Origin: a virus
IMG/VR virus record: IMGVR_UViG_3300031463_000001
Coordinates: 1-64,000 of that record
Direction: 5' to 3' (one strand)
Length of the DNA stretch: 64,000 bases
Shown here: one piece after another, positions 23,752 to 61,671 of the stretch
How positions within the stretch are numbered: the first letter of the stretch is position 1
Layout of the letters: each line of letters begins with the position of its first letter
The notes under the pieces: model-generated
Databases searched by the model: none
The model's input: the letters and a program-made list of their open reading frames with translations, nothing else
Told to the model about the DNA's origin: nothing
Made by a program: the position numbers and the translations under genes

Positions 23752-24276
23752 ATGAATATATCTGATTTATTAAAAGATCCAGAAAAAGCAAAAGAGATTT
23801 TAAATTTGGCTATTAGAACCCAAAATAAAGAATTAGTTGAGATATTAATTCCAATAGCCAAAGATCCTTATCTTACTTGTGTATATGCAATAGAAATGGT
23901 TAAGGGAAAAATTAAAGATGAATGGGAAGATATTATTGCACAAGATGCTAAAAACTCTTATTCATATGCAGAATTTGTTTTAGAAAAACCTTTTCCAAAA
24001 GGAGAGGATGCTATTGCTAAAGATCCGAAATATTCCTATTATTATGTTAGAGATGTTTTAAGGAGTCCTTTTCCAAAAGGAGAAGATGCTATTGCTAAAA
24101 ATCCAGAATATTCTTACAAGTATGCAAAATATTTTTTAAAAAATAGATTCATTAAAGGAGAAAAAGAGATTGTCAAAGATAATTATTTGTTTAAAGAATA
24201 TGTAGAATTTCTTAAAAATATTGGTAAACTAGACGAATTCTTAAAAGATCATCCAGAAGTAAAAGATAAAGTATGA
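23752..24276 (+). CDS. 26-aa helical-repeat family protein (3 KGE units; start moved from 23731)
   Basis: MNISDLLKDPEK start, PFPKGEDAIA repeats, KLDEFLKDHPEVK end. Confidence 0.85.
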   Translation: MNISDLLKDPEKAKEILNLAIRTQNKELVEILIPIAKDPYLTCVYAIEMVKGKIKDEWEDIIAQDAKNSYSYAEFVLEKPFPKGEDAIAKDPKYSYYYVRDVLRSPFPKGEDAIAKNPEYSYKYAKYFLKNRFIKGEKEIVKDNYLFKEYVEFLKNIGKLDEFLKDHPEVKDKV

Positions 24277-24869
24277 ATATAGAAGATTTGTTAAAAGATC
24301 CCGAAAAAGCAAAAGAGGCTTTAGATAATGCCATTAGAACCCAAAATAAAGAATTAGCTGAGATATTAATCCCAATAGTTAAAAATCTTTATTTAATTTA
24401 TAGATATGCTAGAGATATAGTTGGAGGAAAGATTAAAGATGAATGGGAAGACATAATTGCTACCAATCCTAGATATTCGTATCATTATGCTTATGAAGTC
24501 TTAAATGGTCCTTTTCCAAAAGGAGAAAATGCTATAGCCACCGATGCAGAATATTCTTATAGATATGCCCTAAATGTTTTACATGAACCATTTCCAAAAG
24601 GAGAAAATGCAATTGCAACTGATCCTTTTTATTCCTTTTTTTATGCTTGTGAAGTTATAAAGGGTCCATTCCTAAAGGGAGAAGATACTATATCTAAAGA
24701 TGATTATCATTCTTATGAGTATGCCAAATTTATTCTTAATGATAGATTTATTAAAGGAGAAGGAGCTATAATTAAGTATAAAAAATATATTGATTCTTAT
24801 ATAGGTTTTCTTAAAGAAATTGGTAAACTAGACGAATTCTTAAAAGATCACCCAGAGGTTAAATTATGA
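24273..24869 (+). CDS. 26-aa helical-repeat family protein (4 units)
   Basis: Same caps and repeats; ATGA overlap with neighbours. Confidence 0.85.
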   Translation: MNIEDLLKDPEKAKEALDNAIRTQNKELAEILIPIVKNLYLIYRYARDIVGGKIKDEWEDIIATNPRYSYHYAYEVLNGPFPKGENAIATDAEYSYRYALNVLHEPFPKGENAIATDPFYSFFYACEVIKGPFLKGEDTISKDDYHSYEYAKFILNDRFIKGEGAIIKYKKYIDSYIGFLKEIGKLDEFLKDHPEVKL

Positions 24870-25537
24870 ATATATCTGATTTATTAAAAGATCCAGAAAA
24901 AGCAAAAGAGGTTTTAGATTTGGCTATTAGAACCCAAAATAAAGAATTAGCTGAAATGTTAATTCCAATAGTTAAAGATCCTTATTTAATTTATAGATAT
25001 GCAGATCGAATAGCTAAAAGAAAAGTTAAAGACGAATGGGAAGATATTATTGCTCAAGATTCTTATGCTTCTTACGATTATGCTAACTATATTTTAAAAG
25101 GTCCTTTTCCAAAAGGAGAGGATGCTATTTCTCAAAAGCCTTTTACTTCTTACTATTATGTTAAAAATGTCTTACATGGTCCCTTTCCAAAAGGAGAAGA
25201 TGCTATTGCTCAAAATGCTTTTTATTCTTATTCTTATGCTGCAGAGGTTTTAAAGGGTCCATTTCCTAAAGGTGAGGATACCATTGCTAAAGATTCAGAA
25301 TATTCTTATCTTTATGCTGAAAATGTTTTACAAGGACCTTTTCCTAAAGGAGAAGATGTTATTAGTAAAGAGAATTATTATGCTTATCATTATGCTAAAG
25401 TAGTGTTACATAATAGATTTCCAAAAGGAGAAAAAGCAATAATAAATTCAATTTGGTTAGAACCTTATGTTGAGTTTCTTAAAAACATAAACAAATTAGA
25501 TGAATTCCTAAAAGATCATCCAGAAGTAAAAAGATAG
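24866..25537 (+). CDS. 26-aa helical-repeat family protein (5 units)
   Basis: Same caps; 78-bp internal period (for example 25100 and 25178). Confidence 0.85.
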   Translation: MNISDLLKDPEKAKEVLDLAIRTQNKELAEMLIPIVKDPYLIYRYADRIAKRKVKDEWEDIIAQDSYASYDYANYILKGPFPKGEDAISQKPFTSYYYVKNVLHGPFPKGEDAIAQNAFYSYSYAAEVLKGPFPKGEDTIAKDSEYSYLYAENVLQGPFPKGEDVISKENYYAYHYAKVVLHNRFPKGEKAIINSIWLEPYVEFLKNINKLDEFLKDHPEVKR

Positions 25538-25540
25538 AAT

Positions 25541-25996
25541 ATGAATATAACTGATTTATTAAAAGATCCAGAAAAAGCCAAAGAAGTATTGGAAAAGGTA
25601 CTTGATGATAAAAATAAAGAATTAGCTGAAATATTAATCCCAGTAGTTAGAGATCCTTATTTAACTTATGCATATGCTTCCGAAATAGTTGAAGGGAAAA
25701 TTAAAGACGAGTGGGAAGATATTATTATGCAAAATGCAAAGTATTCTTATTTTTATGCATTTGATGTTATAAAGGAACCTTGGCCAAAAGGAGAAGATGC
25801 AATAGCCCAAGCCGATGATGTAGCTATTATATATGATTATGCAACAGAGATATTACATGATCGATTTAAAAAAGGTGAGGATTCAATTATTAGGATTGAT
25901 AAGGGATATGTTGAAGCGTATATGGAATTTTTAAAAAAGATTAGTAAACTAGATGAGTTTTTAAAAGATCATCCGGAGGTAAAGTCCAATTTGTAA
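25541..25996 (+). CDS. 26-aa helical-repeat family protein (2 units)
   Basis: Same caps and repeats. Confidence 0.85.
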   Translation: MNITDLLKDPEKAKEVLEKVLDDKNKELAEILIPVVRDPYLTYAYASEIVEGKIKDEWEDIIMQNAKYSYFYAFDVIKEPWPKGEDAIAQADDVAIIYDYATEILHDRFKKGEDSIIRIDKGYVEAYMEFLKKISKLDEFLKDHPEVKSNL

Positions 25997-26006
25997 ATAT
26001 TGATTT
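25991..26006 (+). promoter_or_regulatory. Putative late-promoter motif TTGT-N5-TTGATTT
   Basis: ttgt-aaata-ttgattt, 5 nt before ATG 26012, at the head of the tail operon. Confidence 0.55.
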
Positions 26007-26011
26007 TAAAT

Positions 26012-26581
26012 ATGAGTGGCTTAGATAGTTCTCAGGTAGTTACTAGGATTAGAAATGCTTTTATTTTACATCTTAGGGATATCTTTAAAAAGCATCCTAC
26101 TTATACGTATGTAGAAAAAGATGAAGGAATGCCTGATTATGAGAAAACTAAATTGATTATTTTTGATGTTACTCCATTAGAACCTTTTATGGTTCCTGCT
26201 ATAATTGTAAATACAGTTCCTTCTAATGAGATTAGATTCGTTCAGAATTCAGACTTTTTTTATAGAGAAAATGAAACTACTGATGTTATGGGAGCTTTGA
26301 TTACTGGGGATGTGAATATAGAAATTTTATCTTTAAGTACCATAGATAGAGATAAACTTGTGGATGTAGTTTATGATTTTTCTAAAAAGTTTACTGAAGA
26401 ATTAGAGAAGTATGGAATTGCTATTATTTCTTCTTCATTTGATCCTTCGAGTCAAACATATATAAATGATAGATGGTGGTATTCAAGTAAAATGAGAATG
26501 AAATTCTTTACTGAGTATACTGATGAAGTAAAGTATGATTTATTAACAAAAATAAATTTTGATTATAAAATAGGAGGTTAA
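26012..26581 (+). CDS. Putative tail completion/terminator protein
   Basis: Directly upstream of the sheath; PAIIV...IEILS....DRDKLVD pattern. Confidence 0.6.
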   Translation: MSGLDSSQVVTRIRNAFILHLRDIFKKHPTYTYVEKDEGMPDYEKTKLIIFDVTPLEPFMVPAIIVNTVPSNEIRFVQNSDFFYRENETTDVMGALITGDVNIEILSLSTIDRDKLVDVVYDFSKKFTEELEKYGIAIISSSFDPSSQTYINDRWWYSSKMRMKFFTEYTDEVKYDLLTKINFDYKIGG

Positions 26582-26583
26582 TT

Positions 26584-28254
26584 ATGCCAAATTTAAAACA
26601 GTTGGGTGTTGAACCTGGAGTATATGTAGAATATTCTCCAACTACTACTCTTCCTTCTGGTTTATTTATAAATGTACTTGCATTAATTGGTAGAGGAGCA
26701 GATACAAAAATAGAGAAAGAAGAAATTGTAAAAGTAGATGGTCCAATAGATAACTTATCTTATACTACCACAGATGCTTCATTTATTACTACTATAAATG
26801 ATCAATTTAGTAACATTTATAAAGTAGGAATGGATTTTGTCGTTAAAGACAATAATAAAATAGATTGGAGTTTGAATGGTTCTCCAATTAAAGCTACTTT
26901 GATTACAAATGTAGATTCAACCTTTAATTGGAGTTCATTAGAAGGAAAAAGTTTAACTTTTAGTATAAATGGAGCTAGTCCAATAACAATTCTTTTTGGG
27001 CAGCCTATAAATGGAATAGATGATGTAATTAGTGCTTTAAATTTTAGTTTAGGAAGTGTTGCTATAGCTAGTTCAGTTACTATTGAAGGAATAGCCCAAA
27101 TTCAAATAGTTGTTAAAGATTTTCATACTTTTAACTATTTTGTATCAACTTCAATTGAAGTATTAAGTGTAGGAGATTCAGATGGATTATCTTTTTTGAA
27201 ATGGTGGAATAAACAAATAGAGTGGGGATCAAAGGAACCAAAAGTAGATAATACTTTCTATGTAAGTTATCCTAGAAAGAAAATTTATCCAGATGATTAT
27301 CAACCAAAATATTTCTTTGCTTATTCTCAAATAGTAGATGAATATGGAGAAATAGATACTGATAATCCTTTAAGTACTTCTTTAAGCCTTGGAGCAAAAA
27401 TTGCATTTGAGAATAATGTTTCAGCTCTTCTTTGTGTTCCTCTAAATCCTAGTTTAAATGATTATGTGGGAATTAAAGAAGCTTTAGAGAAACTTAAAAA
27501 TTATGATTGTTCTTATATTGTTCCACTTACTAATGATAAAAACATATTGACAGATTTAAAAAGTCATGTGGACTTTATGAGTTCTTTAACTGAAAGGAAA
27601 CCTAGAAAAGCAATGTTTGGTTTGCCAGAAATGGATAAAGAAAGTATTATATCATTAGCTCAATCGATAAATGATATGAGAATAACTTTAGTATATCCAT
27701 TTATAGGAAAAAGAACAGAAGGGGGAATAGATATAATTCTTCCAAGTTCTTTTATAGCGTGTGAACTTGCCGCAAAGAGATGTGCTGCTCTTTTGCCTTC
27801 ACAACCTCTTTTAAGGGCTCAATTAGTAAGTTTTATAGATATAAATGATACTTGGACAAGAACAGAAAAGAATATGGTGGCCGGAGCTGGAGTAACAATT
27901 ATAGAAAAAGTTCCAAATATTAATGTTATGCGAGTAAGAGATTGGTTAACTACCTCTCAAAATGGTTTACATTCAAGTGGAGAAATAGTAGATATAATTG
28001 ATTATGTAATGACTAGAGTAATGAATATAACTGAGGGTGCATTTATTGGTAAACCTTTAACAGATGAAATAATTCTTTTAATTTATGCTTTCATTACTAA
28101 TTTCTTAGATGGTTTAATATCTAATGGAATTATAAATAGTTACAACAATTTAGTAGTGAAGAAAAATGATCAAGAACCCACCCAAGTAGATGTTTCATTT
28201 GAGATTAAACCTATATTTACTCTCAAATATATTTATATTAGGTTTACGATTTAA
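26584..28254 (+). CDS. Tail sheath protein
   Basis: N-terminal PGVYVE; C-terminal AGVTIIE...RDWLTT...IIDYV...EPTQVDVSFEIKPIFTLKYIYIRF. Confidence 0.92.
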   Translation: MPNLKQLGVEPGVYVEYSPTTTLPSGLFINVLALIGRGADTKIEKEEIVKVDGPIDNLSYTTTDASFITTINDQFSNIYKVGMDFVVKDNNKIDWSLNGSPIKATLITNVDSTFNWSSLEGKSLTFSINGASPITILFGQPINGIDDVISALNFSLGSVAIASSVTIEGIAQIQIVVKDFHTFNYFVSTSIEVLSVGDSDGLSFLKWWNKQIEWGSKEPKVDNTFYVSYPRKKIYPDDYQPKYFFAYSQIVDEYGEIDTDNPLSTSLSLGAKIAFENNVSALLCVPLNPSLNDYVGIKEALEKLKNYDCSYIVPLTNDKNILTDLKSHVDFMSSLTERKPRKAMFGLPEMDKESIISLAQSINDMRITLVYPFIGKRTEGGIDIILPSSFIACELAAKRCAALLPSQPLLRAQLVSFIDINDTWTRTEKNMVAGAGVTIIEKVPNINVMRVRDWLTTSQNGLHSSGEIVDIIDYVMTRVMNITEGAFIGKPLTDEIILLIYAFITNFLDGLISNGIINSYNNLVVKKNDQEPTQVDVSFEIKPIFTLKYIYIRFTI

Positions 28255-28267
28255 ATAGGAGGTTTTT

Positions 28268-28813
28268 ATGGCAGATTTACCATTAACTAATGCTAGACTA
28301 GCTACTTCAATAAAAATATATTCAATTAAGGATGATTTAGATTTAACTCAAAATCTTTCTAGTATAGCGGGTAATATAGCTTCAGGTAAATATGGGAGTG
28401 CTACACCTATAGGAGCTATAACTAAATTAGAGGAAGTTAATAGTCGTACTGCTCCAGCTCGATATGAAGTTGATGCTGATTCTGCAGGTGAGATAGTTGA
28501 AAGAATACCTCAACTTGTAGATAGAACTTTAAGGATAGAAAGAATAGTTCTTTATAGTGGAGATGCTATAAAAGCTATCGCTAATGTGGATGCTGATTTA
28601 ATAAATCAAACTAAACCTTTCACAATAGCTAAGGTTGAATATAATGTTACTAAAGATGCTAATGGAAATGTAGTAAAAACTCCTCAGGCAGTTACTCTTT
28701 ATTTAGGTTGTTGGTTTACTACAAATCCAAAATCTTATTCTGTAACAGGAAACATACATATAATTCAGACTGTAGATGTAGGATACGCAAAAAGGAGATA
28801 TTTTACAGTATAA
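28268..28813 (+). CDS. Tail tube protein
   Basis: Follows the sheath; IGAI...YE...E.IP...L.IERI.LY and YLGCWFT pattern. Confidence 0.8.
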   Translation: MADLPLTNARLATSIKIYSIKDDLDLTQNLSSIAGNIASGKYGSATPIGAITKLEEVNSRTAPARYEVDADSAGEIVERIPQLVDRTLRIERIVLYSGDAIKAIANVDADLINQTKPFTIAKVEYNVTKDANGNVVKTPQAVTLYLGCWFTTNPKSYSVTGNIHIIQTVDVGYAKRRYFTV

Positions 28814-28839
28814 GTAAGAATAATTAGATAGGAGGAGAA

Positions 28840-29166
28840 ATGATAAAGCAAATAGTAAAAGATGTGAAATTAGGAGAAGATACACTAACCCTCACCTCAT
28901 TGACTTATGGTGATATACTTGATATATCCACTATGTATGAGAAATTGAGTAAAGAGGATGGAGATGCAAATATTAAAGCAATGAAGCAAAACCTAATAAG
29001 TTTAGTGTATCATTTAAAGAAAATAAATGGACAACCTATTAATAGCTCGGAAGCTGAAAAGTATTTGAGAGATTTATCTCCAGAAGATGTATTAGATTTA
29101 CTTAAAATAGTTGCAGATATAGAGAATGAAAAAACTAAAATAATTGATGAGTTAAAAAAAAAATAG
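28840..29166 (+). CDS. Tail assembly chaperone (gpG-like)
   Basis: Between tube and tape measure; ends in the slippery TTA AAA AAA AAA TAG. Confidence 0.75.
   Translation: MIKQIVKDVKLGEDTLTLTSLTYGDILDISTMYEKLSKEDGDANIKAMKQNLISLVYHLKKINGQPINSSEAEKYLRDLSPEDVLDLLKIVADIENEKTKIIDELKKK
29154..29163 (+). other. -1 ribosomal frameshift site (A10)
   Basis: The -1 frame continues IDNDLPFRDDYLLCKFF without a stop into ORF 29199-29495. Confidence 0.75.
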
Positions 29167-29495
29167 ATAACGATTTACCTTTCCGGGACGATTATTTATT
29201 GTGTAAGTTTTTCAAAAAACCTCTTTCGGAAATTCGAAAATTAGATGATTTAGAGCGACTTTGGTTACTTCATCACATCTATCAAGATGAAAAAGAAAAG
29301 TATCATATTTTGGATACTTTAATGAAAGTTATTCGTCCTGAATTACTTAATACAGAAACAACAATTACTAAAGCGGATGATTCCTTATTATTGGAAGAAT
29401 TAAAGCAATATTATCCAGATAAGAGTGATGAAGAGTTACAACAATTGTTAAAGGAGAATGGGGAGGTTGATACTTTGATAGATAGGGTAGATTAA
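29163..29495 (+). CDS. Tail assembly chaperone frameshift extension (gpT-like)
   Basis: No SD or ATG of its own; in the -1 frame relative to 28840. Confidence 0.7.
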   Translation: MDNDLPFRDDYLLCKFFKKPLSEIRKLDDLERLWLLHHIYQDEKEKYHILDTLMKVIRPELLNTETTITKADDSLLLEELKQYYPDKSDEELQQLLKENGEVDTLIDRVD

Positions 29496-29500
29496 AAATT

Positions 29501-31078
29501 ATGAAAGAAGAAGATTTATTTAAAAAATTTGAAGAAATATCTAGTGCAGCTGAAGCTATTTTTAAAAGGTTAAGTGAAACCCATAAAACAGCTACAGAAG
29601 ATCAAATTGCTTTAGTTAAAAAGTTTACTGAAGCTGTTGAAAGCTATTCAAATAAGTATTCTGAAGTAGGTAAACATCTTGGTGAATTTCAAAAAAATTT
29701 AAGAGATTTTAGTGCTGCAAATAATATTAATATTAGTGGATTGGGAGATACTTTTAAAGCTTTAACTAATCGAATTGATGAATTGAATGTTGATAAAAAA
29801 ATTAGGGAATTATTAGATAAATTAGATGAAGGAACTAGTACTTGGAAAGAAAAAATAAAATCAATTCCAGAAAGTTTAGCAAGAGATTTTGGTGATCTTT
29901 TTAATTCAATAATAAATATAACCTATCAAATAAATAAATTTGGGACATCTATTGAAGCTTTAATTAGAACAGGAGCAGGAAAAGAATTAGCTGTTCCCCC
30001 AGAACATTTATATTATGCTGATGTAGCTAAATATGGTGAGTGGATGCTTGAGATTGCAAAAAAAGCTCCCTTATTACTTGAAGGAGTTTCAGCCTCAGGA
30101 AAGGAAGCTGAGAAAAATTTAGTTCATTTTAGAGAGGCTCTTGCTTATTATACCTTAAGTGGTGATGAAGCTAATAGAACGATAGTTCAAATTGCCTCTG
30201 GATTAACAAATTTAAGAGGAACATCAACAGCTTTTTATGAAAACTTTAATGACACACTTGGGAAACAAATGACTTTATATAGTGAAGTTTCTAAACTTTC
30301 TAGAGAATATAACTTAAACCAACTTGAAATGATTTCGACTTTAACTAGAGCAGCAACAAAATTTAAGGATGTTTCACAAAGTAATCGGGAACTAGAATAT
30401 ACTATGGCAATAACTGATATGGTTGCGAGTCAATTTAATTTAACTGCTACTCAGACTCAAGATTTATTTAGAAAATTAAGTGAAGGTTTATCTAATATAT
30501 CTATGACAAGCTATGGAGCTTTAACATATTTAGCTACCGGAGCACTTCCTACTACTGGAGTGGCTCAAACAGGAGGGGAAATTGCTAAAGAATTTGTGGT
30601 TGCCTTTCAAAGAATTTTACCCCAACTTCCAACTGGAGGAGCATATGGAGACTATATAAGTCAAGTAGCGGTTCAACAACTTGCAAGCACATTTGGGGTA
30701 AACTTAACTGCTCAACAAGCAGTTGAATTTGAGAAAGCATTAAGAAAGGGTGCTGTTGATGAAATAAGTCAAAGAATAAAGGATTTAAAGGAATCGGGAA
30801 TGGATGAATTAATTAAGAGCTCTAAAAAAGGTGTTGATGTTTTAGAATCACAAGTAGAACCTCTTAAACAAATTGCTAATATAATGCAGACAATAGTTGC
30901 ACCCGCATTAGGTGAGGTAACTGCAGCTTTACCTGGTTTAGTGGGTATACAATTACTATCTGGATTATTTCCTGCGGGTAAAACAGTTTCATTGATAAAA
31001 GGGGGTTTAGCAGTAGGAACAATGGTAGGCGGATACTTGTGGGGAAAAGCTGAGGAGGCGAGTAAGGTAGGAGGGTAA
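29501..31078 (+). CDS. Tape measure protein
   Basis: Helical, Ala/Leu-rich, follows the chaperones, hydrophobic Gly-rich C-terminus. Confidence 0.75.
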   Translation: MKEEDLFKKFEEISSAAEAIFKRLSETHKTATEDQIALVKKFTEAVESYSNKYSEVGKHLGEFQKNLRDFSAANNINISGLGDTFKALTNRIDELNVDKKIRELLDKLDEGTSTWKEKIKSIPESLARDFGDLFNSIINITYQINKFGTSIEALIRTGAGKELAVPPEHLYYADVAKYGEWMLEIAKKAPLLLEGVSASGKEAEKNLVHFREALAYYTLSGDEANRTIVQIASGLTNLRGTSTAFYENFNDTLGKQMTLYSEVSKLSREYNLNQLEMISTLTRAATKFKDVSQSNRELEYTMAITDMVASQFNLTATQTQDLFRKLSEGLSNISMTSYGALTYLATGALPTTGVAQTGGEIAKEFVVAFQRILPQLPTGGAYGDYISQVAVQQLASTFGVNLTAQQAVEFEKALRKGAVDEISQRIKDLKESGMDELIKSSKKGVDVLESQVEPLKQIANIMQTIVAPALGEVTAALPGLVGIQLLSGLFPAGKTVSLIKGGLAVGTMVGGYLWGKAEEASKVGG

Positions 31079-31081
31079 TCT

Positions 31082-31570
31082 ATGGCAAGTTTTTTTCCAG
31101 TAATAATTGAGGGAGTAAGATTTTTAGTTAATCCAACTTCTATCCGATTAAATACTACTGCAGTTACTCAAGAAGTCAATACTGTTTCGGGCCCAGTTTT
31201 ACAAGTATGGTATCCTAAATTTACTATTATGTATATAACAGGTTATGCTGGAGGAACTAGAGCTTATAGAGAATTAACTTATTTAAGAGATTTCTTTTTT
31301 GCTGAAAATAGAATAATTAAAGTATTTTATAAAACTAAACTTTATAGGGGTTCTTTTACTTATTTTGATTTATCTACTGAAACTGCGGAAAATTTAAGAT
31401 TTAAATATCAGTTAAATATGTTATTATTAGATAACGCAGATTTCAAATATCAAGATTTTGCTTTAGGAGTTTTTGTAAAACCATTCAACTTATTTGGATT
31501 AGAAAATTTGAAGAAGAAATTAAATTTGGGAGCAGATAAACTAGAATCTTTTTTAATGAGAAAAAAATGA
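31082..31570 (+). CDS. Putative tube-initiator/baseplate protein
   Basis: FLVNPTSI...T..G.V..VW...ITG...YRGSF..F pattern; follows the tape measure. Confidence 0.6.
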   Translation: MASFFPVIIEGVRFLVNPTSIRLNTTAVTQEVNTVSGPVLQVWYPKFTIMYITGYAGGTRAYRELTYLRDFFFAENRIIKVFYKTKLYRGSFTYFDLSTETAENLRFKYQLNMLLLDNADFKYQDFALGVFVKPFNLFGLENLKKKLNLGADKLESFLMRKK

Positions 31571-31576
31571 GGTTAA

Positions 31577-34909: not shown

Positions 34910-34912
34910 AAT

Positions 34913-35865: not shown

Positions 35866-35866
35866 A

Positions 35867-37246: not shown

Positions 37247-37249
37247 ATT

Positions 37250-39205: not shown

Positions 39206-39220
39206 TTAATAGGAGTTATA

Positions 39221-41371: not shown

Positions 41372-41379
41372 GAGGAAAG

Positions 41380-42240: not shown

Positions 42241-42252
42241 ATGGAGGTTAAT

Positions 42253-42672
42253 ATGTCCGATTATGCAGTAATAGATAAGAATGGAAGAGTAGTAAATGTG
42301 ATTGTAGCGGATGAAGAATTTATTAATAATTGGTTACCTAAATATACTAATTATTCTCAAGCAATAGAAAGAATAGGAAGAAAAGGAAATATAGGACAAT
42401 TATATGTTAATGGAATATTTTATGAAATAACTTCTTTTACTGAAGATTTATCATCCCAAATAGACGGAACCAAAACATCTTTTAACCTTACATATTTACC
42501 TCAAAAAGATTTTAATGTAACAGCCACCAAAGATGATATAAAAGTAACTTTAAACAACAATGTAATTACTGATTTTGAATATAATAATCAAGCAATAACG
42601 TTTACAAATCCACCTGCAAGTGGATCAACTTTGATGGTAAGCTATCCAATAAAGAAAGAGGTAACTGAATGA
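42253..42672 (+). CDS. Tail fibre assembly-like protein with a C-terminal DG.KTSF module
   Basis: YAVID.NG.VVNVIV start after the Gly-rich gene; SD ggagg. Confidence 0.55.
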   Translation: MSDYAVIDKNGRVVNVIVADEEFINNWLPKYTNYSQAIERIGRKGNIGQLYVNGIFYEITSFTEDLSSQIDGTKTSFNLTYLPQKDFNVTATKDDIKVTLNNNVITDFEYNNQAITFTNPPASGSTLMVSYPIKKEVTE

Positions 42673-44018
42673 ACAAGGTAGAGACAACTGTAGGAACTCC
42701 ATTAACAACCAATTTAATTAATGCTCTTAGTGATATAAGTAATAGTAATGTAAGCGATTTAGTTAATTTAAGTTTTAAAAATGGAGTATTTAGAAACCTA
42801 CCCAATGAACCCTTTCCTTTTTCTATTTCTGCTTTATCCCAAGGATCTAATTTAGTTGTAACAGTAACTCCAGGTAAAGCATTATTGGATGATGGAACTG
42901 CTTTAATTGTTACTCAAAACTTAACTGCTTCTATTCCAATTACCAACTCTTATCCAATTAGAGTTTATCTATCTTACGAATATATTTCTCCTGATTCTTC
43001 TTTACCTAGTAAAAAAGTTTGTAATCCTATTTTAGTTCTTAAACCTAACGATGATAATACAGTTCCAAGCAATAAAACATTTTTAGGAAGTGTTAGTTAT
43101 GATAATGGATTCAAATATGATTATAGTTCTAGAAATTGGTTAAGTTTCTCTACTGGGATACAACAATTAGTTACTTTACCCACTCAAACAGATACTTCAA
43201 TGCCAGATTATGGTTTTGGTAAAACAGTATCTTATACTGATCATATGTTTGCAAGAGGACATGGTTCAATAACTCCAACCAATCCACATGGTTTATCTTT
43301 AGTGGATGTTGAAGGTTGGGTAGAAACAAAGTTAACTGAAACACACGAATCTCAAATGCACAAAACAAGTTTATTAGGTGGGGTACCCACATTTATTTCA
43401 ATCCAACAAGCCATAGGAAACCTAAACTATTACTATATGTTTATTCAATTTCCTGCTAATGTTACTATGTTTTTAAAAGGAAAAACATTTAATAATACCA
43501 ACATACCTTCAATATATTTATATTTTGGTACTTTTGGAACTAATAGTTTTAATCCATTACCTCAATCAACTTATTTAGTTGCCTATGGTTTGGATAGTAA
43601 TAATAGGGTTTATCCTCAAATAATTAATTTAAAAGATTCATCTATTACTAGTAACTATCATTGGAAATATGTAACAGATACAGATTATAGACAATCCCAA
43701 GTTGTGGATGGAGTTACTAATGAAGGAGACTATTTTTATTTAAAGATTTATAATTGGGTAGTTCCTGCTAATTCTTTAGTTAGTAATTCACTTACTCCTT
43801 ATAATTTTTTCAATAATTCAAAAGAATTAGTTCCAATAGGTACTACAATCTTATGGCCCAACACTACTAATTTTCCTGTAGGATATGTACCCGGAGGAAC
43901 TATACTATATAAGAAAGGATTTATAACTCTTAGCAATATTATGAATAACAGTGGAGAAACTTTTATATTACCTACCACCACTATCTCAAATTTTACACCT
44001 TTAATTAAAGCTGTTTAG
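42669..44018 (+). CDS. Tail fibre-related protein, paralogous to the N-terminus of 39221
   Basis: VTPGKALLDDG; DH...GHG....NPHGLSL shared with 39221; collar-like VPIGTTILWP...PVGY. Confidence 0.65.
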   Translation: MNKVETTVGTPLTTNLINALSDISNSNVSDLVNLSFKNGVFRNLPNEPFPFSISALSQGSNLVVTVTPGKALLDDGTALIVTQNLTASIPITNSYPIRVYLSYEYISPDSSLPSKKVCNPILVLKPNDDNTVPSNKTFLGSVSYDNGFKYDYSSRNWLSFSTGIQQLVTLPTQTDTSMPDYGFGKTVSYTDHMFARGHGSITPTNPHGLSLVDVEGWVETKLTETHESQMHKTSLLGGVPTFISIQQAIGNLNYYYMFIQFPANVTMFLKGKTFNNTNIPSIYLYFGTFGTNSFNPLPQSTYLVAYGLDSNNRVYPQIINLKDSSITSNYHWKYVTDTDYRQSQVVDGVTNEGDYFYLKIYNWVVPANSLVSNSLTPYNFFNNSKELVPIGTTILWPNTTNFPVGYVPGGTILYKKGFITLSNIMNNSGETFILPTTTISNFTPLIKAV

Positions 44019-44040
44019 AAGGGAAAAATAAATAAACAAT

Positions 44041-44069
44041 TTGCGTAATTAGTTTATAACAATTAGTTT
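44041..44069 (+). promoter_or_regulatory. Possible sigma70-type promoter TTGCGT-N17-TAGTTT
   Basis: Correct spacing, upstream of the SD of ORF 44087; weak evidence in AT-rich DNA. Confidence 0.35.
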
Positions 44070-44086
44070 GTAAGGAGAGTAGTTCG

Positions 44087-44245
44087 ATGAAAGTAAATAG
44101 AATTAGAGTAAGAAAAATAGATAGGATTAATACTAATGTAAAAATCCATACTCCAAAAATCCAAAAAGAGAAATACAGATTTAATTGGAGGAAAGAGATT
44201 GAAGACGAACTCGATGAAAAGAAATTTGGAGGTTTATTATGGTGA
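44087..44245 (+). CDS. Small basic protein, 52 aa (MKVNRIRVRKIDR...GGLLW), not in the ORF track
   Basis: SD aaggag; stop overlaps the start of 44239. Confidence 0.6.
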   Translation: MKVNRIRVRKIDRINTNVKIHTPKIQKEKYRFNWRKEIEDELDEKKFGGLLW

Positions 44246-44487
44246 AATGTTTGGTGTGCGAATGTATTGAGGAGGCACATTTATTTTATTGGAAATGTCC
44301 TCTTTATGGTGACATAATATGTAGTGAGTGTTGTTGGAGTGTACCTAAAATTGAAGAATATCCTGAAATGAAAGAACGATTAATTAAATCAGGAGTGGAT
44401 ATTAATAAGATTCCTGAAATATGTAAAGAATGTGGAAGGAATGGATATTACGAATATAAACTAGAAAACCCACCTAAGAAAACCTAA
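44239..44487 (+). CDS. Small Cys-rich Zn-binding protein
   Basis: CLVC, CP....ICSECC, CKEC; SD ggagg. Confidence 0.7.
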   Translation: MVKCLVCECIEEAHLFYWKCPLYGDIICSECCWSVPKIEEYPEMKERLIKSGVDINKIPEICKECGRNGYYEYKLENPPKKT

Positions 44488-44566
44488 AATACTGAATAGC
44501 TTCCCACGTTTTATTGATGGAATTTAACCTTTTAAAGTTTGTACAAGAGATTTATGTTGTTGAAAA

Positions 44567-45088
44567 TTATTGGGGTGTTATTTCTGGATGATCTTTATAG
44601 AACTCATCTAGTTTACCAATTTGTTTAAGAAAATTGGTATAAGAGGTAAGTTGTTTTTTATTTTTAATTATAGTTCCTTCTCCCTTAATAAATCTATCTT
44701 TTAAAACGTTTTGAGCATAAAGGCATGAGTAATAGCTATCAGTAGCTATAGTATTTTCACCTTTAGGAAAAGGACCATGCAAAACATCACTAGCATAACC
44801 ATATGCATATCTTAACCATTTAGCCATTTCATCTTCCCCCTTTGGAAAAGGCCCTTTTAAAATAAATTTAGCATACCAAAAAGAAGTTTGGCCATCTAAA
44901 GTAATTATATCTTCAAACGTATCTTTAATCTTACCTTTAGCAATTTTTTCGGCATATTCATAAGTTAAAAAAGGATCTTTAACCATTGGGATTAATGTTT
45001 CTGCTAGTTCTTTATCTTTCTTTTTAATAGCTTCTTTTAATACTTTTTTAATTTTATCGGGATCTTTTAATAAATCTGATATGTTCAT
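44567..45088 (-). CDS. 26-aa helical-repeat family protein (3 units)
   Basis: MNISDLLKDPDK...PFPKGE...KLDEFYKDHPE. Confidence 0.85.
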   Translation of the reverse strand: MNISDLLKDPDKIKKVLKEAIKKKDKELAETLIPMVKDPFLTYEYAEKIAKGKIKDTFEDIITLDGQTSFWYAKFILKGPFPKGEDEMAKWLRYAYGYASDVLHGPFPKGENTIATDSYYSCLYAQNVLKDRFIKGEGTIIKNKKQLTSYTNFLKQIGKLDEFYKDHPEITPQ

Positions 45089-45528
45089 AATTTATCTTTA
45101 ACCTCTGGATGGTCTTTTAGAAATTCGTTTAACTTATTAATTTTTTTAAGAAAATCTATATAATCCCAAAAATAATCAAAATTAATAATAGTATCCTCTC
45201 CCTTAATAAACCTATCTTTTAACACATCTTTAGCATACCAAAAAGAATACCAAGAATTTTTAGCTATAACATCTTCTCCTTTAATAAATCTATCTTTTAA
45301 AACATAACTAGAATAAAAAAAAGAAAATTTTGAATCTTGAGCAATAATATCTTCAAACTCATCTTTAATCTTACCTTTAGCAACTTTTTCCGCATATTCA
45401 CAAGTTAACTCGGGATCGTTAACTATTGGGATTAACATTTCTGCTGCTTCTTTATTTTTATCTTCAATAGCTTTTTCTAATACTTTTTTAGCTTTATTTG
45501 GATCTTTTAATAAATCTGATATGTTCAT
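45085..45528 (-). CDS. 26-aa helical-repeat family protein (2 units)
   Basis: Same caps and repeats. Confidence 0.85.
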   Translation of the reverse strand: MNISDLLKDPNKAKKVLEKAIEDKNKEAAEMLIPIVNDPELTCEYAEKVAKGKIKDEFEDIIAQDSKFSFFYSSYVLKDRFIKGEDVIAKNSWYSFWYAKDVLKDRFIKGEDTIINFDYFWDYIDFLKKINKLNEFLKDHPEVKDKL

Positions 45529-46133
45529 ACTTTATCTTTTACCTCTGGATGATTGTTTAAGAATTCTTTTAATTTTTTTATTCGTCTAAGAAAATTTATA
45601 TAACTCTTTAAATAAGTTGAATCGGAATTATTTATAATTGTATTTTCACCTTTAATGAATCTATCTCTTAAAACTTCTTTTGCATATCTAACTGAATAAT
45701 TAGAATTGGTAGCAATAGCATCTTCTCCTTTTGGGAATGGACTATGTAATATATATGCGGCATATTCAAATGAATGGTTTGGCTGTTTAGCTATTGCATC
45801 CTCTCCTTTTGGCCACGGTCCTTTTATAACATTAAATGCATATGAGTAAGCACTCCAAGGATCTTTAGAAATAGTATCTTCTCCTTTAGGAAACGGACCC
45901 TTTAAAACCTCATAAGCATACCAATAAGACCATATTCCATCTTGAGCAATTATATCTTCCCACTCATCTTTAATCTTACCTTTAACTATTCTTACAGCAT
46001 AAAGTTCTGTTAAACGGGGTTCTTTAACTATTGGGATTAACATTTCTGCTAATTCTTTGTTTTTGTTATCAATAGCTTCTTTTAATACCTTTTTAATTTT
46101 ATCGGGATCTTTTAATAAATCAGATATGTTCAT
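45525..46133 (-). CDS. 26-aa helical-repeat family protein (4 units)
   Basis: Same caps and repeats. Confidence 0.85.
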   Translation of the reverse strand: MNISDLLKDPDKIKKVLKEAIDNKNKELAEMLIPIVKEPRLTELYAVRIVKGKIKDEWEDIIAQDGIWSYWYAYEVLKGPFPKGEDTISKDPWSAYSYAFNVIKGPWPKGEDAIAKQPNHSFEYAAYILHSPFPKGEDAIATNSNYSVRYAKEVLRDRFIKGENTIINNSDSTYLKSYINFLRRIKKLKEFLNNHPEVKDKV

Positions 46134-46648
46134 AATTTAATTTTGTATATACTATGACCTTTCTCTATAAATTCTGCAGAAAAGTTTTGATGTAATACAT
46201 GAGATCTCCAACGTGTTTCTTTCTTTTCAATTATCCACCATCTACCCCCATCCTTCCTTACAATAAAATCTCCATTCTGTAAAGAGGGTTCAAAGAGAGT
46301 CCACCCACTTAATATAGCTTCATTTTTTATACCTTGTTCAGTAGGTTTAAATCTTTGATTAAATGGTGTAATCATACTAATTTTAATTTCAATGGGACGA
46401 TAAAATCCACCAACATAATTAGTTCCAAAACAATAAAGACAAAATTCAATTTGAGGATGTTGTCCTCTTATCTTATCAAAATTAGGACAAATTTGGCCCT
46501 CTCTCTTTTTTCTATAATATAAAACACGTTCACCTCCCATCTCCAATAACCATTTCTCTCTATTTCGAATTTCCAGGAGGTATCTGACTAAAGGATCAAA
46601 GTTACGATCTGAAACATTGGGAAGAATTTGTAGGTGAGACCAACTCAT
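46130..46648 (-). CDS. Putative head-closure/neck protein with a Zn site
   Basis: GERVLYY.KK..G..CP...CLYCFGTNYVGGF...P.LQNGDFIV...RW pattern resembling large-myophage neck proteins. Confidence 0.55.
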   Translation of the reverse strand: MSWSHLQILPNVSDRNFDPLVRYLLEIRNREKWLLEMGGERVLYYRKKREGQICPNFDKIRGQHPQIEFCLYCFGTNYVGGFYRPIEIKISMITPFNQRFKPTEQGIKNEAILSGWTLFEPSLQNGDFIVRKDGGRWWIIEKKETRWRSHVLHQNFSAEFIEKGHSIYKIKL

Positions 46649-47169
46649 AGTTTAACCTCCGGATGATCTTTTAAGAATTCATCTAGTTTATTTATAGATT
46701 TAAGGAAATTAATATAATCTTCCAAATATCTTTTTTTAGGAGAATTAATAATAACATCCTCTCCTTTAATAAATCTATCTTTTAAAACATCTTGAGCATA
46801 TCGATTAGAACTCCAAAAATCAGTAGCAATAGCAGGTTCTCCTTTTGGCCAAGGACCTTTTATAATATCTCTAGCATATAAATAAGCATAATTATCATCT
46901 TTAGCAAGTGTATCTTCACCTCTAGGGAATGGACCTTTTAAAACAAATAAAGCATAATCATATGAAACTTTTACACTTTGAGCAATTATGTCTTCAAATT
47001 CATCTTTAACTTTACCCCGAGTTATATAATATGCATATTCATAAGTTAACGCGGGATCTTTAATTATTGGTATTAACATTTCTGCTAATTCTCTTTTTTC
47101 ACTAGTTATAGCCTTCCATAAAACTTTTTTAATTTTATCGGGATCTTTTAATAAATCTCCTATATTCAT
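46645..47169 (-). CDS. 26-aa helical-repeat family protein (3 units)
   Basis: Same caps and repeats. Confidence 0.85.
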   Translation of the reverse strand: MNIGDLLKDPDKIKKVLWKAITSEKRELAEMLIPIIKDPALTYEYAYYITRGKVKDEFEDIIAQSVKVSYDYALFVLKGPFPRGEDTLAKDDNYAYLYARDIIKGPWPKGEPAIATDFWSSNRYAQDVLKDRFIKGEDVIINSPKKRYLEDYINFLKSINKLDEFLKDHPEVKL

Positions 47170-47612
47170 AATTTATCTTTTACCTCCGGATGATCTTTTA
47201 AAAACTCATCTAGTTTGTATATAGATTCAAGGAAACTAATATAATCCTTTAAATATTCTTTATCTTTAATAATAATATTTTCTCCTAAAAGAAATCTATC
47301 TTTTAAAATATTTTTAGCATAATCAAAAGAATACAATGAATCTTTAGCAATAGTGGGTTCTCCTTTTAGGAATGGTCCATGTAAAACATTTTCAGCATAC
47401 CAACAAGAAACAGGTGCGCTTTGTGCAATAATATCTTCCCACTCGTCTTTAATTGGTTTTCTAACTATTCGTTGAGCATATTTATAGGTTAAATAAGGAT
47501 CTTTAACTATTGGAATTAACATTTCGGCTAATTCTTTGTTTAAATCATCAATAGCATCTCTTAATACTTCTTTAGCTTTATCTGGGTTTTTTAATAAATC
47601 TGATATATTCAT
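47166..47612 (-). CDS. 26-aa helical-repeat family protein (2 units)
   Basis: Same caps and repeats. Confidence 0.85.
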   Translation of the reverse strand: MNISDLLKNPDKAKEVLRDAIDDLNKELAEMLIPIVKDPYLTYKYAQRIVRKPIKDEWEDIIAQSAPVSCWYAENVLHGPFLKGEPTIAKDSLYSFDYAKNILKDRFLLGENIIIKDKEYLKDYISFLESIYKLDEFLKDHPEVKDKL

Positions 47613-48223
47613 AATTTAACTTCTGGATGATCTTTTAAGAATTCATCTAGTTTATTTATTGTTTTTAAGAAATCGATATATTTTATCAAATAATTTTTTT
47701 CACCTTCTTGATCTCCACTATCTATAATTACATTTTCTCCTTTAACAAATCTACCCTTTGATACATCTCTAGCATAATGATAAGAATAATAAGGATCTTT
47801 AGCAATAACATCCTCTCCTTTAATAAAAGGTTTTTGTAAAACATTTGCAGCATAAAGATAAGAGAAAGTGGGATCTTTAGCTATAACATCCTCACCTTTA
47901 GGAAATGGACCTTTTAAGACCTCATAAGCATAATAATAAGAACTATAGGCGTTAGTAGCAATAGCATCTTCTCCTTTTGGGAATGGGGCATGTAAAACAA
48001 AGCTAGCATATCGATAAGAATAAAGGGGATCTTTAGTAATAATATCTTCCCATTCATCTTTAATTTTATTTTCAGCTATTTCAAGGGCATATCTAAAAGT
48101 TAACCCAGGATCTTTAACTATTGGAATTAACATTTTAGCTAATTTTCTTTCCCCAGTATTTATAGCTTTTCTTAATGCTTTTTCAGCTTTACTTGGATCT
48201 TTTAATAAATCTAAAAGATTCAT
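47609..48223 (-). CDS. 26-aa helical-repeat family protein (4 units)
   Basis: Same caps and repeats. Confidence 0.85.
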   Translation of the reverse strand: MNLLDLLKDPSKAEKALRKAINTGERKLAKMLIPIVKDPGLTFRYALEIAENKIKDEWEDIITKDPLYSYRYASFVLHAPFPKGEDAIATNAYSSYYYAYEVLKGPFPKGEDVIAKDPTFSYLYAANVLQKPFIKGEDVIAKDPYYSYHYARDVSKGRFVKGENVIIDSGDQEGEKNYLIKYIDFLKTINKLDEFLKDHPEVKL

Positions 48224-55651: not shown

Positions 55652-55669
55652 ATAAGTATCCCTATAAAT

Positions 55670-55685: not shown

Positions 55686-55689
55686 TCAA

Positions 55690-61664: not shown

Positions 61665-61671
61665 CACAAAA

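What the first reader, a model, noticed from the sequence alone, without database searches (positions are those of the whole stretch)
23752..48223. Library of ten modular 26-aa helical-repeat proteins with constant caps, variable repeat number and hypervariable positions
Seen: four genes at 23752-25996 (+) and six at 44567-48223 (-) share an N-cap (..NKELAE.LIPIVKDP...KIKDEWEDIIA), 2-5 units of (G)PFPKGEDAIA-x4-5-SY-x-YA-xx-VL and a C-cap (FLK.I.KLDEFLKDHPEVK). Lengths step by about 26 aa (147-151, 173-174, 198-204, 223). The framework is conserved while the x positions differ in nearly every unit and are rich in Y/W/F and charged residues. Most genes are coupled by ATGA overlaps. Inference: a DARPin/alphaRep-like binder repertoire diversified by unequal crossover, plausibly inhibiting different host defence proteins. 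No reverse transcriptase or template repeat is visible in this window.
Basis: partly seen in the sequence, partly recalled or inferred. Interest (0 to 1): 0.85.

Follow-up and report, generated by a model that had tools for sequence, protein, structure and literature searches.

The report
Viral repertoire of capped helical-repeat proteins
A tailed virus from hot-spring and sediment samples spends about a seventh of its known genome on some three dozen versions of one small helical-repeat protein that differ mainly along one face of one helix, which looks like a natural library of binding proteins whose targets are still unknown.

Summary
The ten genes exist as described. They belong to a family of 36 ORFs, 15% of a 124,898-bp virus record.

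An AlphaFold model (pLDDT 97) shows a two-helix solenoid. Sequence variability concentrates at six positions of the 26-residue unit. These positions lie on one face of the long helix and are rich in aromatic residues.

No Pfam family, solved structure or paper matched. The bare repeat, however, occurs in more than 5,000 protein clusters, the nearest of them viral.

- **Recombination:** close relatives differ in gene number, repeat number and unit composition between conserved flanks. One gene is a clear three-donor mosaic. This supports recombination at the conserved framework.
- **Selection:** positive selection was not shown. At the variable codons, dN/dS is about 0.5 between orthologues and about 1 to 1.3 between paralogues, not significantly above 1.
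- **Mutagenic retroelement:** no reverse transcriptase or template repeat was found in the record.
- **Context:** the gene that interrupts the minus-strand array is a virion neck protein. The plus-strand array lies just upstream of the tail sheath.

A binder repertoire is the best reading. An anti-defence role is untested.

Earlier scan notes describe the same family, but only on this same genome.

The parts
23752..24276 (+). A1, family gene, 174 aa, 3 units (the longest ORF starts at a TTG at 23731)
24273..24869 (+). A2, family gene, 198 aa, 4 units; ATGA overlap with A1
24866..25537 (+). A3, family gene, 223 aa, 5 units; this is the protein that was modelled (pLDDT 97.1)
25541..25996 (+). 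A4, family gene, 151 aa, 2 units (spacing 28); followed at 26000 by an unknown ORF and at 26584 by the tail sheath
47609..48223 (-). B1, family gene, 204 aa, 4 units; ATGA overlap with the 942-aa primase-domain ORF upstream. Its orthologue in L038 has different units 3 and 4.
47166..47612 (-). B2, family gene, 148 aa, 2 units; absent from the related contig L038
46645..47169 (-). B3, family gene, 174 aa, 3 units; orthologue in L038 is 93% identical
46130..46648 (-). X, not a family member: a 172-aa virion neck (stopper/connector-like) protein embedded in the array, with ATGA overlaps on both sides
45525..46133 (-). B4, family gene, 202 aa, 4 units; orthologue in L038 is 90% identical. L038 has an extra 198-aa paralogue in front of it.
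45085..45528 (-). B5, family gene, 147 aa, 2 units; orthologue is 88% identical
44567..45088 (-). B6, family gene, 173 aa, 3 units; orthologue is 95% identical; last gene of the minus-strand block
55247..55702 (-). Divergent family member (E 7e-25), one recognisable unit; the family-type start lies inside the ORF
61900..62355 (-). Divergent family member (E 3e-24), 151 aa
61422..61667 (-). N-cap-only fragment, 81 aa (E 1.5e-11)
51539..52117 (-). 192-aa protein of a second paralogue family. Only its first ~15 residues match the repeat family's N-terminus. Its paralogues are at 52117-52689 and 54278-54844.

Best explanation
These genes belong to a lineage-specific multigene family of small, soluble, capped alpha-solenoid proteins.

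Each protein has four parts:
- a constant N-cap of about 63 aa, made of a short tag helix plus two degenerate hairpins;
- 1 to 4 internal 26-aa hairpin units of the P-F-P-K-G-E type;
- one terminal unit of the D-R-F-I-K-G-E type;
- a constant C-cap.

The framework residues build the core. Six positions per unit, lying on one face of the 12-residue helix, carry a different and aromatic-rich residue set in every unit.

The most likely function is a repertoire of specific protein binders. Each paralogue would hold its own target, which could be a host or viral protein. The constant caps close the solenoid and may give a shared handle.

New variants arise by homologous recombination in the conserved framework and caps. 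This includes unequal crossover, unit swaps and gene gain and loss. Once formed, a paralogue is kept under purifying selection.

**Shown:** anatomy, fold class, position of the variability, recombination, purifying selection, late-gene context.

**Inferred:** binding, the identity of targets, any anti-defence role.
For: - **Fold:** the AlphaFold2 model of A3 has pLDDT 97.1 and pTM 0.88. Each unit is a 12-residue helix plus a 7-residue helix.
- **Variable face:** entropy peaks at unit positions 3, 4, 7, 10 and 11, that is i, i+1, i+4, i+7 and i+8. The normalised helical moment is 0.60 (permutation p = 0.017).
- **Aromatic enrichment:** Tyr, Phe and Trp make up 36 of 128 residues (28%) at positions 3, 7, 10 and 11. 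They make up 10.5% of the other ORFs of this genome.
- **Distinct signatures:** 32 of 32 window units and 80 of 81 genome units have distinct signatures.
- **Charge:** most members are acidic to neutral. Of the 36 ORFs, 25 have pI below 7.
- **Purifying selection:** in 10 orthologous pairs of at least 80% identity, dN/dS is 0.25 in the caps, 0.28 in the framework and 0.45 at the variable codons. Orthologue pairs are well supported in the tree, on long paralogue branches.
- **Array turnover:** flanks are 90-96.5% identical to the related contigs L035 and L038, yet the arrays differ. The plus-strand array has 4 genes here and 3 in L035. B2 is absent from L038, which instead has an extra 198-aa gene.
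- **Mosaic gene:** the first gene of L035 is about 97% identical to A3 over nt 241-352, about 93% identical to the gene at 84058-84711 over nt 361-480, and about 97% identical to A2 over nt 481-660. The breakpoints lie at or near the framework motif.
- **Faster change at variable codons:** nonsynonymous change is 3.5 to 4.6 times enriched at variable codons relative to framework codons (Fisher p from 2e-3 to 5e-22).
Against: - No binding partner is known and none could be tested.
- dN/dS at the variable codons never exceeds 1 significantly. The value of 4.2 for recent units in L032 rests on only 3.7 synonymous differences and falls to about 0.75 with pooled dS. Neutral drift of exposed positions after duplication is therefore not excluded.
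- Whether the variable face is concave, convex or continuous in three dimensions was not checked.
- Paralogues within this genome share no recent conversion tracts. Only 2 tracts reach 90% identity over 60 nt, and both lie in the C-cap. Shuffling is therefore occasional, not rapid.
- Part of the C-cap's constancy has another cause. Its P-E-V codons carry the next gene's ribosome-binding site: GAGGT in 6 of 9 junctions behind a family gene and GAAGT in the other 3.
- The host is unknown, so 'host defence' has no object yet.
Confidence: 0.5

Rival explanations
1. Packaged cargo. The proteins are made late with the virion parts. The shared N-terminal decapeptide targets them into the head, and they are injected with the DNA. 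This resembles the internal proteins of T4 and their capsid-targeting sequence (recalled). It is compatible with a binder function, but makes a distinct claim about location and timing.
For: - The minus-strand array encloses a virion neck gene and is translationally coupled to it. That gene has 11 Foldseek PDB hits at E<=1e-3, all neck, stopper or connector proteins.
- The plus-strand array ends 588 bp upstream of the tail sheath gene.
- The same first ~10 residues head three proteins of an unrelated paralogue family. hhalign aligns only 15 columns, at 73% identity.
- The N-terminal domain often fused to this repeat elsewhere matches a gene annotated 'structural protein' in Pseudomonas phage PA5oct (32% identity, E 2e-24).
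Against: - The N-cap also occurs inside longer proteins: the second module of 66747-67919, and the proteins P0018 and P0011. It therefore does not need a free N-terminus.
- Pfam found no head protease (PF03420, PF04586). This is weak evidence, because the genome is very divergent and the PF03420 control rang nowhere.
- The minus-strand array also follows primase and ligase genes, which are not typical late genes.
- There is no proteome and no transcript data.
Confidence: 0.25
2. Common-function scaffold with drifting surface. All paralogues do the same job, for example dosage of a structural, chaperone or decoy protein. The variable positions are simply unconstrained, solvent-exposed sites.
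For: - dN/dS at the variable codons is about 1 between paralogous units: 0.94-1.33 over 120 independent pairs.
- No test showed positive selection.
Against: - Between orthologues the same codons are constrained, with dN/dS 0.45-0.68.
- Aromatic residues are 2.7 times enriched there. Free surface positions in an AT-rich genome would not be expected to show this.
- Individual paralogues are kept as recognisable orthologues in related viruses.
Confidence: 0.15
3. Nucleic-acid readers. Each unit reads a base or a short motif through the i, i+1, i+4 residues, as in PUF, PPR or TAL proteins (recalled). The family would then be a set of sequence-specific RNA or DNA regulators.
For: - The variable-position spacing of 3, 4, 7 is the spacing used by PUF repeats (recalled).
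- PUF proteins appear among the weak Foldseek rows (E 0.4-1.2).
- Automatic source names call many relatives 'lambda repressor-like predicted transcriptional regulator'.
- There are weak summed hits to Pfam HTH_35.
Against: - 25 of 36 members have pI below 7.
- At positions 3, 7, 10 and 11, Lys plus Arg (23 of 128) do not exceed Asp plus Glu (26 of 128).
- There are only 2 to 5 units per protein.
- The HTH_35 hits cover only profile positions ~32-50 of 75, and no single stretch passes.
- The structural matches are at background level.
Confidence: 0.07
4. Targeted hypermutation. The variable positions are rewritten by a diversity-generating retroelement.
For: - Only the pattern of a constant framework with a few hypervariable codons.
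Against: - No PF00078 match in the 124,898-bp record, while the control genomes rang.
- No near-identical template/variable repeat pair.
- The variable codons are conserved between orthologues.
- The record is estimated to be 76% complete, so an element in the missing part cannot be excluded.
Confidence: 0.01

Closest known systems
Designed repeat-protein binder libraries (DARPins, alphaRep) - recalled, not from a call
   Same: Constant N- and C-caps. A variable number of identical-framework internal repeats. A handful of randomised positions per repeat, lying on one helical face. Small, soluble, two-helix units.
   Different: This family is natural, not designed. Its unit is 26 aa, and no ankyrin or HEAT profile matches it. 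Binding has not been shown. The genes also carry an embedded ribosome-binding site and stop/start overlaps that chain them into arrays.
Repeat-protein multigene families of large eukaryotic viruses (poxvirus ankyrin/PRANC host-range genes, ankyrin/BTB/F-box expansions of giant viruses, entomopoxvirus tryptophan-repeat family) - recalled. Weak BFVD rows for such proteins appear.
   Same: One solenoid family is expanded to dozens of tandem paralogues. A constant terminal module is joined to a variable repeat part. Evolution is by birth and death, with lineage-specific expansion.
   Different: This is a tailed virus of a prokaryote with a genome of about 125-165 kb. The repeat type differs. There is no F-box-like adaptor domain. 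At 15%, the family's share of the genome is very high.
Lamprey variable lymphocyte receptors - recalled
   Same: Constant caps. A variable number of internal solenoid modules. Variants are built by copying modules between cassettes through short homologies in the framework.
   Different: Here the changes are germ-line and occasional. No near-identical donor tracts exist within the genome. The modules are helical, not leucine-rich repeats. There is no sign of a dedicated assembly enzyme.
T4 internal proteins with a capsid-targeting sequence - recalled
   Same: A short N-terminal peptide is shared by otherwise unrelated small proteins. The genes sit among virion genes.
   Different: Cleavage, packaging and injection are all untested. 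The N-cap also occurs internally in fused proteins.
Pfam HTH_35 (PF13693), the only recurrent profile hit
   Same: A3 (31.2 bits) and B1 (27.3 bits) exceed the 25-bit whole-protein cut-off. 20 of 81 multi-domain relatives also hit.
   Different: The score is a sum of repeats. Each stretch covers only profile positions ~32-50 of 75, and none passes alone. The model fold is a solenoid, not a winged helix.

Membership tests
Pfam HTH_35 (PF13693) | One stretch matching most of the 75-position profile above threshold | tested here: not met
   8 of the 10 proteins have a hit at E<=1. The best stretches cover profile positions ~30-50 (35-70 in A4). The 'stretches' column reads 0 in 6 of these 8 and 1 in two weak hits (A4 at E 0.069, B4 at E 1.2e-4). 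Only A3 and B1 pass the whole-protein cut-off, and they do so by summing repeats.
Known helical repeat families (TPR, HEAT, Sel1, ankyrin, PPR, PUF, DUF4116, LRV) | Sequence match to the family profile at or above its curated cut-off | tested here: not met
   only TPR_Slam, TPR_8 and TPR_17 appear, at E 0.005-0.43 and 11-18 bits against cut-offs of 24-35. All these hits lie in the N-cap. No other repeat family is listed at E<=1.
Known helical repeat families (TPR, HEAT, Sel1, ankyrin, PPR, PUF, DUF4116, LRV) | Structural match clearly above background | tested here: inconclusive
   Foldseek against PDB gave no hit at E<=1e-3, and TM scores were at most 0.25. VIA-align wide gave a best Z of 7.1 (AP-3), with TPR, HEAT, SLR and PPR rows at Z 5-6.3. 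This is below the tool's stated background for helical repeats.
Capped binder-library architecture (works like DARPin or alphaRep) | Constant caps and a variable number of same-framework internal repeats | tested here: met
   2 to 5 units, and 21 of 22 anchor spacings equal 26. The caps align without gaps.
Capped binder-library architecture (works like DARPin or alphaRep) | Hypervariable positions confined to one surface | tested here: inconclusive
   By helical periodicity they lie on one face of the long helix (moment 0.60, p 0.017). They were not mapped on 3D coordinates.
Capped binder-library architecture (works like DARPin or alphaRep) | Different members bind different targets | not testable with these tools
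   No partner is known. This needs pull-downs or display assays.
Diversity-generating retroelement target | Reverse transcriptase and a template repeat near-identical to the variable region | tested here: not met
   0 PF00078 matches in the record, while controls rang in 3 of 14 genomes; no tract of at least 90% identity over 60 nt outside the C-cap.
T4-type capsid-targeted internal proteins | Short N-terminal peptide shared by unrelated proteins | tested here: met
   three ~190-aa proteins share only their first ~15 residues with the family.
T4-type capsid-targeted internal proteins | Presence in the virion and cleavage by the head protease | not testable with these tools
   No proteome exists. 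No protease was found by PF03420 or PF04586, which is not informative for so divergent a genome.
Genes under diversifying selection | dN/dS significantly above 1 at the variable codons | tested here: not met
   0.45 (10 orthologous pairs); 0.50-0.68, 0.94-1.21 and 1.20-1.33 in three divergence bands. In the last band pN is 0.409 and pS 0.362, a difference of about 1.4 standard errors. No site-model software was available.

The most novel reading that the evidence does not exclude
The family is a natural, heritable combinatorial binder system of a virus from hot environments. The caps, with their embedded ribosome-binding site and stop/start overlap, would act as universal joints. Any specificity cassette could then be inserted, deleted or recombined in any array. 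The shared N-terminal decapeptide would load the whole repertoire into the capsid. A cocktail of dozens of pre-made inhibitors would enter the cell with the DNA and disarm a correspondingly diverse set of host defence proteins.
Probability: 0.12. Interest if true: 0.9.

Novelty: new variant of a known kind. Interest (0 to 1): 0.7.

Why it matters
If these proteins are specific binders, this virus carries the largest protein-binder repertoire that I know of in a virus of prokaryotes (from recall, not from a search). It would be built on a repeat type that no database names, although the repeat occurs in more than 5,000 protein clusters.

Three things would follow:
- a new, probably thermostable, naturally capped scaffold for binder engineering;
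- a set of 36 ready-made probes for finding what a virus needs to neutralise in an uncultivated host;
- a clear case of module shuffling as the way a virus renews such a repertoire.

Even if the function differs, naming and modelling this widespread repeat removes a block of 'hypothetical' or mis-named ('lambda repressor-like') annotations.

Tried and rejected
- **Profile libraries:** Pfam and PHROGs scans of the ten proteins gave no usable family.
- **Isolated phages:** tblastn of A3 against 50,697 phage records found no match.
- **Structure and PDB sequence searches:** Foldseek PDB, Foldseek BFVD, VIA-align wide and a PDB sequence profile gave only background-level helical-repeat rows.
- **Self-association:** Complex prediction with two copies of A3 gave no verdict (score 0.00, below the mark; controls not folded). 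This says nothing either way.
- **Sequencing runs:** four DNA runs hold the stretch, with word shares of 0.97, 0.29, 0.26 and 0.21. No RNA holder is listed. When laid, the array is broken into 200-600-nt contigs in all four runs. The many 'joints' have sides of only 20-71 nt and probably reflect cross-mapping of paralogues. I draw no copy-number or rearrangement conclusion from them. The one exception is a single X2 contig that bridges 48900 to 51020, as in L038.
- **Promoter and terminator scan of 43900-51300:** 50 promoter-like sites against 47.3 expected, and 2 terminator-like sites against 2.5 expected. Not informative.
- **Synonymous-site conservation of the caps:** codon identity at same-residue positions among the ten genes is 0.76 in the N-cap, 0.69 in unit 1, 0.67 in the last unit and 0.63 in the C-cap. 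The caps of the window arrays are therefore not specially frozen at silent sites. I did not compute an expectation from codon bias.
- **Per-column pN/pS over all unit pairs:** saturated and distorted at two-fold codons. Not used.
- **Host inference:** there are no tRNAs. The dTMP-kinase homologues carry no taxon names. Labels of assembled genomes that hold relatives are Aenigmatarchaeota, Nanopusillaceae, Pacearchaeota, Nitrososphaerota and Omnitrophica. These may only reflect binning of low-GC contigs.
- **Literature:** three full-text searches returned nothing on this family (listings and abstract starts only, no paper read). That is not proof that it is unpublished. Supplements were not consulted.
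- **Dropped rows:** one search used only the 10 gene pairs with at least 80% identity and at least 100 aa. One search left out L036 and L042 as copies of L031 and L041, and used only members with a canonical 89-residue N-terminal part (48 rows). In one search, B1 was cut after unit 2 because the rest is recombinant.

Full report
**What is there**

The window is the first 64 kb of a 124,898-bp linear virus record with an estimated completeness of 76%. Its GC content is about 28% and it has no tRNA genes.

Four lie head to tail on the + strand (23752-25996). Six lie on the - strand (44567-48223). The - strand run is interrupted by an unrelated 172-aa ORF at 46130-46648.

The ten proteins align with 57% mean column identity. 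The N-terminal 63 residues and the C-terminal ~25 residues align without gaps. The K-G-E anchors are 26 residues apart in 21 of 22 intervals. This gives 2, 3, 4 or 5 units and length classes of 147-151, 173-174, 198-204 and 223 aa.

Eight of the ten genes start in an ATGA overlap with the stop of the gene before. The P-E-V codons of the C-cap carry the next gene's Shine-Dalgarno sequence. It reads GAGGT in 6 of the 9 junctions behind a family gene and GAAGT in the other 3. Part of the C-cap's constancy is therefore a translation signal.

**The family is much larger**

A profile of the ten genes finds 36 ORFs in the whole record, totalling 18,945 nt or 15.2% of the sequence.
- Five are fragments of 84 aa or fewer.
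- Two are weak matches.
- Two are fusions of about 390 aa.

Three divergent members lie elsewhere in the window: 55247-55702, 61422-61667 and 61900-62355. The other arrays lie at about 66.7-77.1, 84.1-85.9 and 90.3-93.8 kb.

Earlier notes of this scan describe the same family from overlapping windows of this same genome. A look-up by sequence found it on no other genome of the scan.

**Anatomy of the unit**

Over the 32 units of the ten genes, entropy is 2.4 to 3.4 bits at unit positions 2, 3, 4, 7, 10 and 11. It is zero at the invariant Tyr-8, Gly-20 and Glu-21. It is below 1 bit at positions 5, 9, 12, 13, 16, 17, 19 and 24.

An AlphaFold2 model of the five-unit protein is very confident (mean pLDDT 97.1, pTM 0.88). 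It shows each unit as a 12-residue helix (positions 2-13) and a 7-residue helix (positions 18-24). The N-cap forms a short first helix plus two further hairpins.

Positions 3, 4, 7, 10 and 11 follow the i, i+1, i+4, i+7, i+8 pattern of one helical face. The normalised entropy moment is 0.60 (permutation p 0.017). I could not map this on coordinates, so the three-dimensional shape of the variable surface is inferred.

At positions 3, 7, 10 and 11, Tyr, Phe and Trp make up 36 of 128 residues (28%). They make up 10.5% of the other ORFs of the genome. All 32 window units, and 80 of 81 units genome-wide, have different six-residue signatures.

Most members are acidic to neutral, with pI below 7 in 25 of 36. 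This argues against a general nucleic-acid-binding role.

**What it is not**

- Pfam gives only summed partial hits to HTH_35 (profile positions ~32-50 of 75, no qualifying stretch) and sub-threshold TPR hits in the N-cap.
- PHROGs gives only weak hits.
- The PDB sequence profile finds nothing.
- Foldseek finds no PDB or BFVD match at E<=1e-3.
- The exhaustive structural comparison tops out at Z 7.1, with generic TPR, HEAT, SLR and PPR rows. That is below the tool's stated background for helical repeats.

The fold class is therefore a two-helix alpha-solenoid with no specific known relative.

The bare repeat is widespread. A profile search of 1.84 billion representatives gives 5,031 proteins at E<=1e-3, 2,873 at E<=1e-10 and 436 at E<=1e-30. 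Some are as long as 2,253 aa, with 23 matched stretches.

Among 81 multi-domain hits, the only recurrent Pfam families are HTH_35 (20 of 81) and Phage_FRD3 (3 of 81). The nearest ESM Atlas clusters are all unnamed and viral.

The capped form, with this N-cap and C-cap, is confined to a small group of low-GC contigs. Twelve loci were found in metagenome contigs, one in viral contigs and one in a genome collection. In addition, 258 proteins of 122-391 aa match.

Source names for these proteins are 'hypothetical' or, wrongly in my view, 'lambda repressor-like predicted transcriptional regulator'.

**Evolution**

Two related contigs are syntenic with the window arrays.

*L038* has flanks 96.5% and 94.2% identical to the window. 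The B1-B3 part is only 84-87.5% identical.
- Orthologues of B3, B4, B5 and B6 are 93, 90, 88 and 95% identical in protein.
- B1's orthologue is 77% identical, because units 3 and 4 are replaced.
- B2 is missing.
- An extra 198-aa paralogue is present.

*L035* has flanks 90% and 95% identical to the window. It holds three genes (226, 202 and 177 aa) where the window has four.

The first gene of L035 is a mosaic at the nucleotide level:
- nt 241-352 are about 97% identical to A3;
- nt 361-480 are about 93% identical to the gene at 84058-84711, which lies 60 kb away;
- nt 481-660 are about 97% identical to A2.

The switches fall at or near the conserved framework motif. This directly supports recombination between paralogues at unit boundaries, including between arrays.

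Within this genome, paralogues are old. The median nucleotide identity is about 71% and the maximum 81%. Only two tracts reach 90% over 60 nt, and both are in the C-cap.

A tree of the N-terminal 89 residues (48 rows) pairs each window gene with its orthologue with high support. It also shows a lineage-specific clade of nine genes in the more distant L032/L037 lineage. This is birth-and-death evolution with occasional shuffling.

**Selection**

In ten orthologous pairs of at least 80% identity, dN/dS is 0.25 in the caps, 0.28 in the framework and 0.45 at the variable codons. In the five window pairs alone it is 0.37, 0.28 and 0.61.

Over independent pairs drawn from 238 distinct units:

| Nucleotide identity of the pair | Pairs | dN/dS, variable codons | dN/dS, framework |
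|---|---|---|---|
| 90-100% | 41 | 0.50-0.68 | 0.22-0.24 |
| 80-90% | 46 | 0.94-1.21 | 0.27-0.28 |
| 72-80% | 74 | 1.20-1.33 | 0.32 |

The excess of nonsynonymous change at variable codons over framework codons is strong (Fisher p from 2e-3 to 5e-22). No value is significantly above 1.

An apparent 4.2 for recent units in L032 rests on 3.7 synonymous differences and falls to about 0.75 with pooled dS.

The fair statement is this. The genes are functional and constrained. Each paralogue keeps its own variable residues over short times. Over longer times those positions change at about the neutral rate. Diversifying selection is possible but not shown.

No reverse transcriptase is present in the record.

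**Context**

The ORF that interrupts the minus-strand array was modelled at pLDDT 79. It matches phage neck, stopper or connector proteins in 11 PDB entries at E<=1e-3, among them the Pam3 neck, the phage 812 neck, T4 gp13/gp14 complexes and the T1 stopper. It overlaps both neighbouring family genes by ATGA.

The plus-strand array ends 588 bp before the tail sheath gene. Both window arrays therefore sit in, or are coupled to, virion-gene operons.

The minus-strand array also follows a 942-aa ORF with an archaeo-eukaryotic primase domain and, further upstream, a ligase.

The first ~10 residues of the family also begin three ~190-aa proteins of an unrelated paralogue family. These facts keep a 'packaged cargo' reading alive. 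Against a strict N-terminal signal, the N-cap also occurs inside longer proteins.

**Verdict**

The best-supported explanation is a repertoire of capped solenoid binders, renewed by recombination at the constant framework and then kept by purifying selection (confidence 0.5).

Packaging into the virion is a compatible rival (0.25). A common-function scaffold with a drifting surface is 0.15, nucleic-acid reading 0.07 and a retroelement 0.01.

The anti-defence idea is a reasonable guess, with no evidence here for or against it.

The comparisons with DARPins, alphaRep, poxvirus ankyrin genes, lamprey receptors, T4 internal proteins and PUF proteins come from recall, not from any call.

Noticed in passing
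window 48220-51048 (-): The 942-aa ORF ends in an archaeo-eukaryotic primase domain (PF22548, E 6e-6). In the related contig L038 the same gene is only 236 aa. It has the same first 10 residues, then continues directly at the equivalent of about residue 715. The window copy therefore carries an in-frame block of about 706 aa (window ~48901-51019). One contig of run X2 bridges the same gap.
   Followed up: partly
window 46130-46648 (-): A 172-aa ORF inside the repeat-gene array has a four-Cys motif. Its fold matches phage neck/stopper proteins (11 PDB hits at E<=1e-3). No Pfam or PHROG family matches it.
   Followed up: yes
window 51539-52117, 52117-52689, 54278-54844 (-): Three ~190-aa paralogues of unknown function (27-28% identical to each other) share only their first ~10-15 residues with the repeat family. 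A related internal motif occurs near the start of 51058-51528.
   Followed up: partly
window 22481-23728 (+): A 415-aa protein has about eight tandem CxxC...C zinc-ribbon modules (DUF2116- and YacG-like hits) in front of a DUF559/MTES_1575-type nuclease domain. Its orthologue in L035 is 493 aa, so the number of zinc-ribbon modules may also vary.
   Followed up: no
G000 69081-69672 and 71049-71487 (outside the window): Two family genes are each split into two ORFs by a stop codon or frame change (47+152 aa and 78+84 aa). They may be decaying copies or sequencing errors.
   Followed up: no
proteins P0024, P0014 and others; G000 92605-93795; window 48220-51048: Elsewhere the repeat is often fused behind an unnamed domain of about 220 aa with a conserved Trp-Cys motif. 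That domain matches a gene annotated 'structural protein' in Pseudomonas jumbo phage PA5oct (32% identity, E 2e-24) and hypothetical proteins in 10 further Pseudomonas phage records and in Salicola phage SCTP-2.
   Followed up: partly
relatives of the family: Assembled genomes holding capped relatives are labelled Aenigmatarchaeota, Nanopusillaceae, Pacearchaeota, Nitrososphaerota and Omnitrophica. Runs holding the stretch are labelled hot springs (3) and sediment (1). This may hint at an archaeal, possibly DPANN, host, or may only reflect binning of low-GC viral contigs.
   Followed up: partly
window 9438-10604 (+): A fusion of thymidylate kinase with an inorganic-pyrophosphatase-like domain. 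It is conserved in relatives on contigs of up to 126 kb.
   Followed up: no
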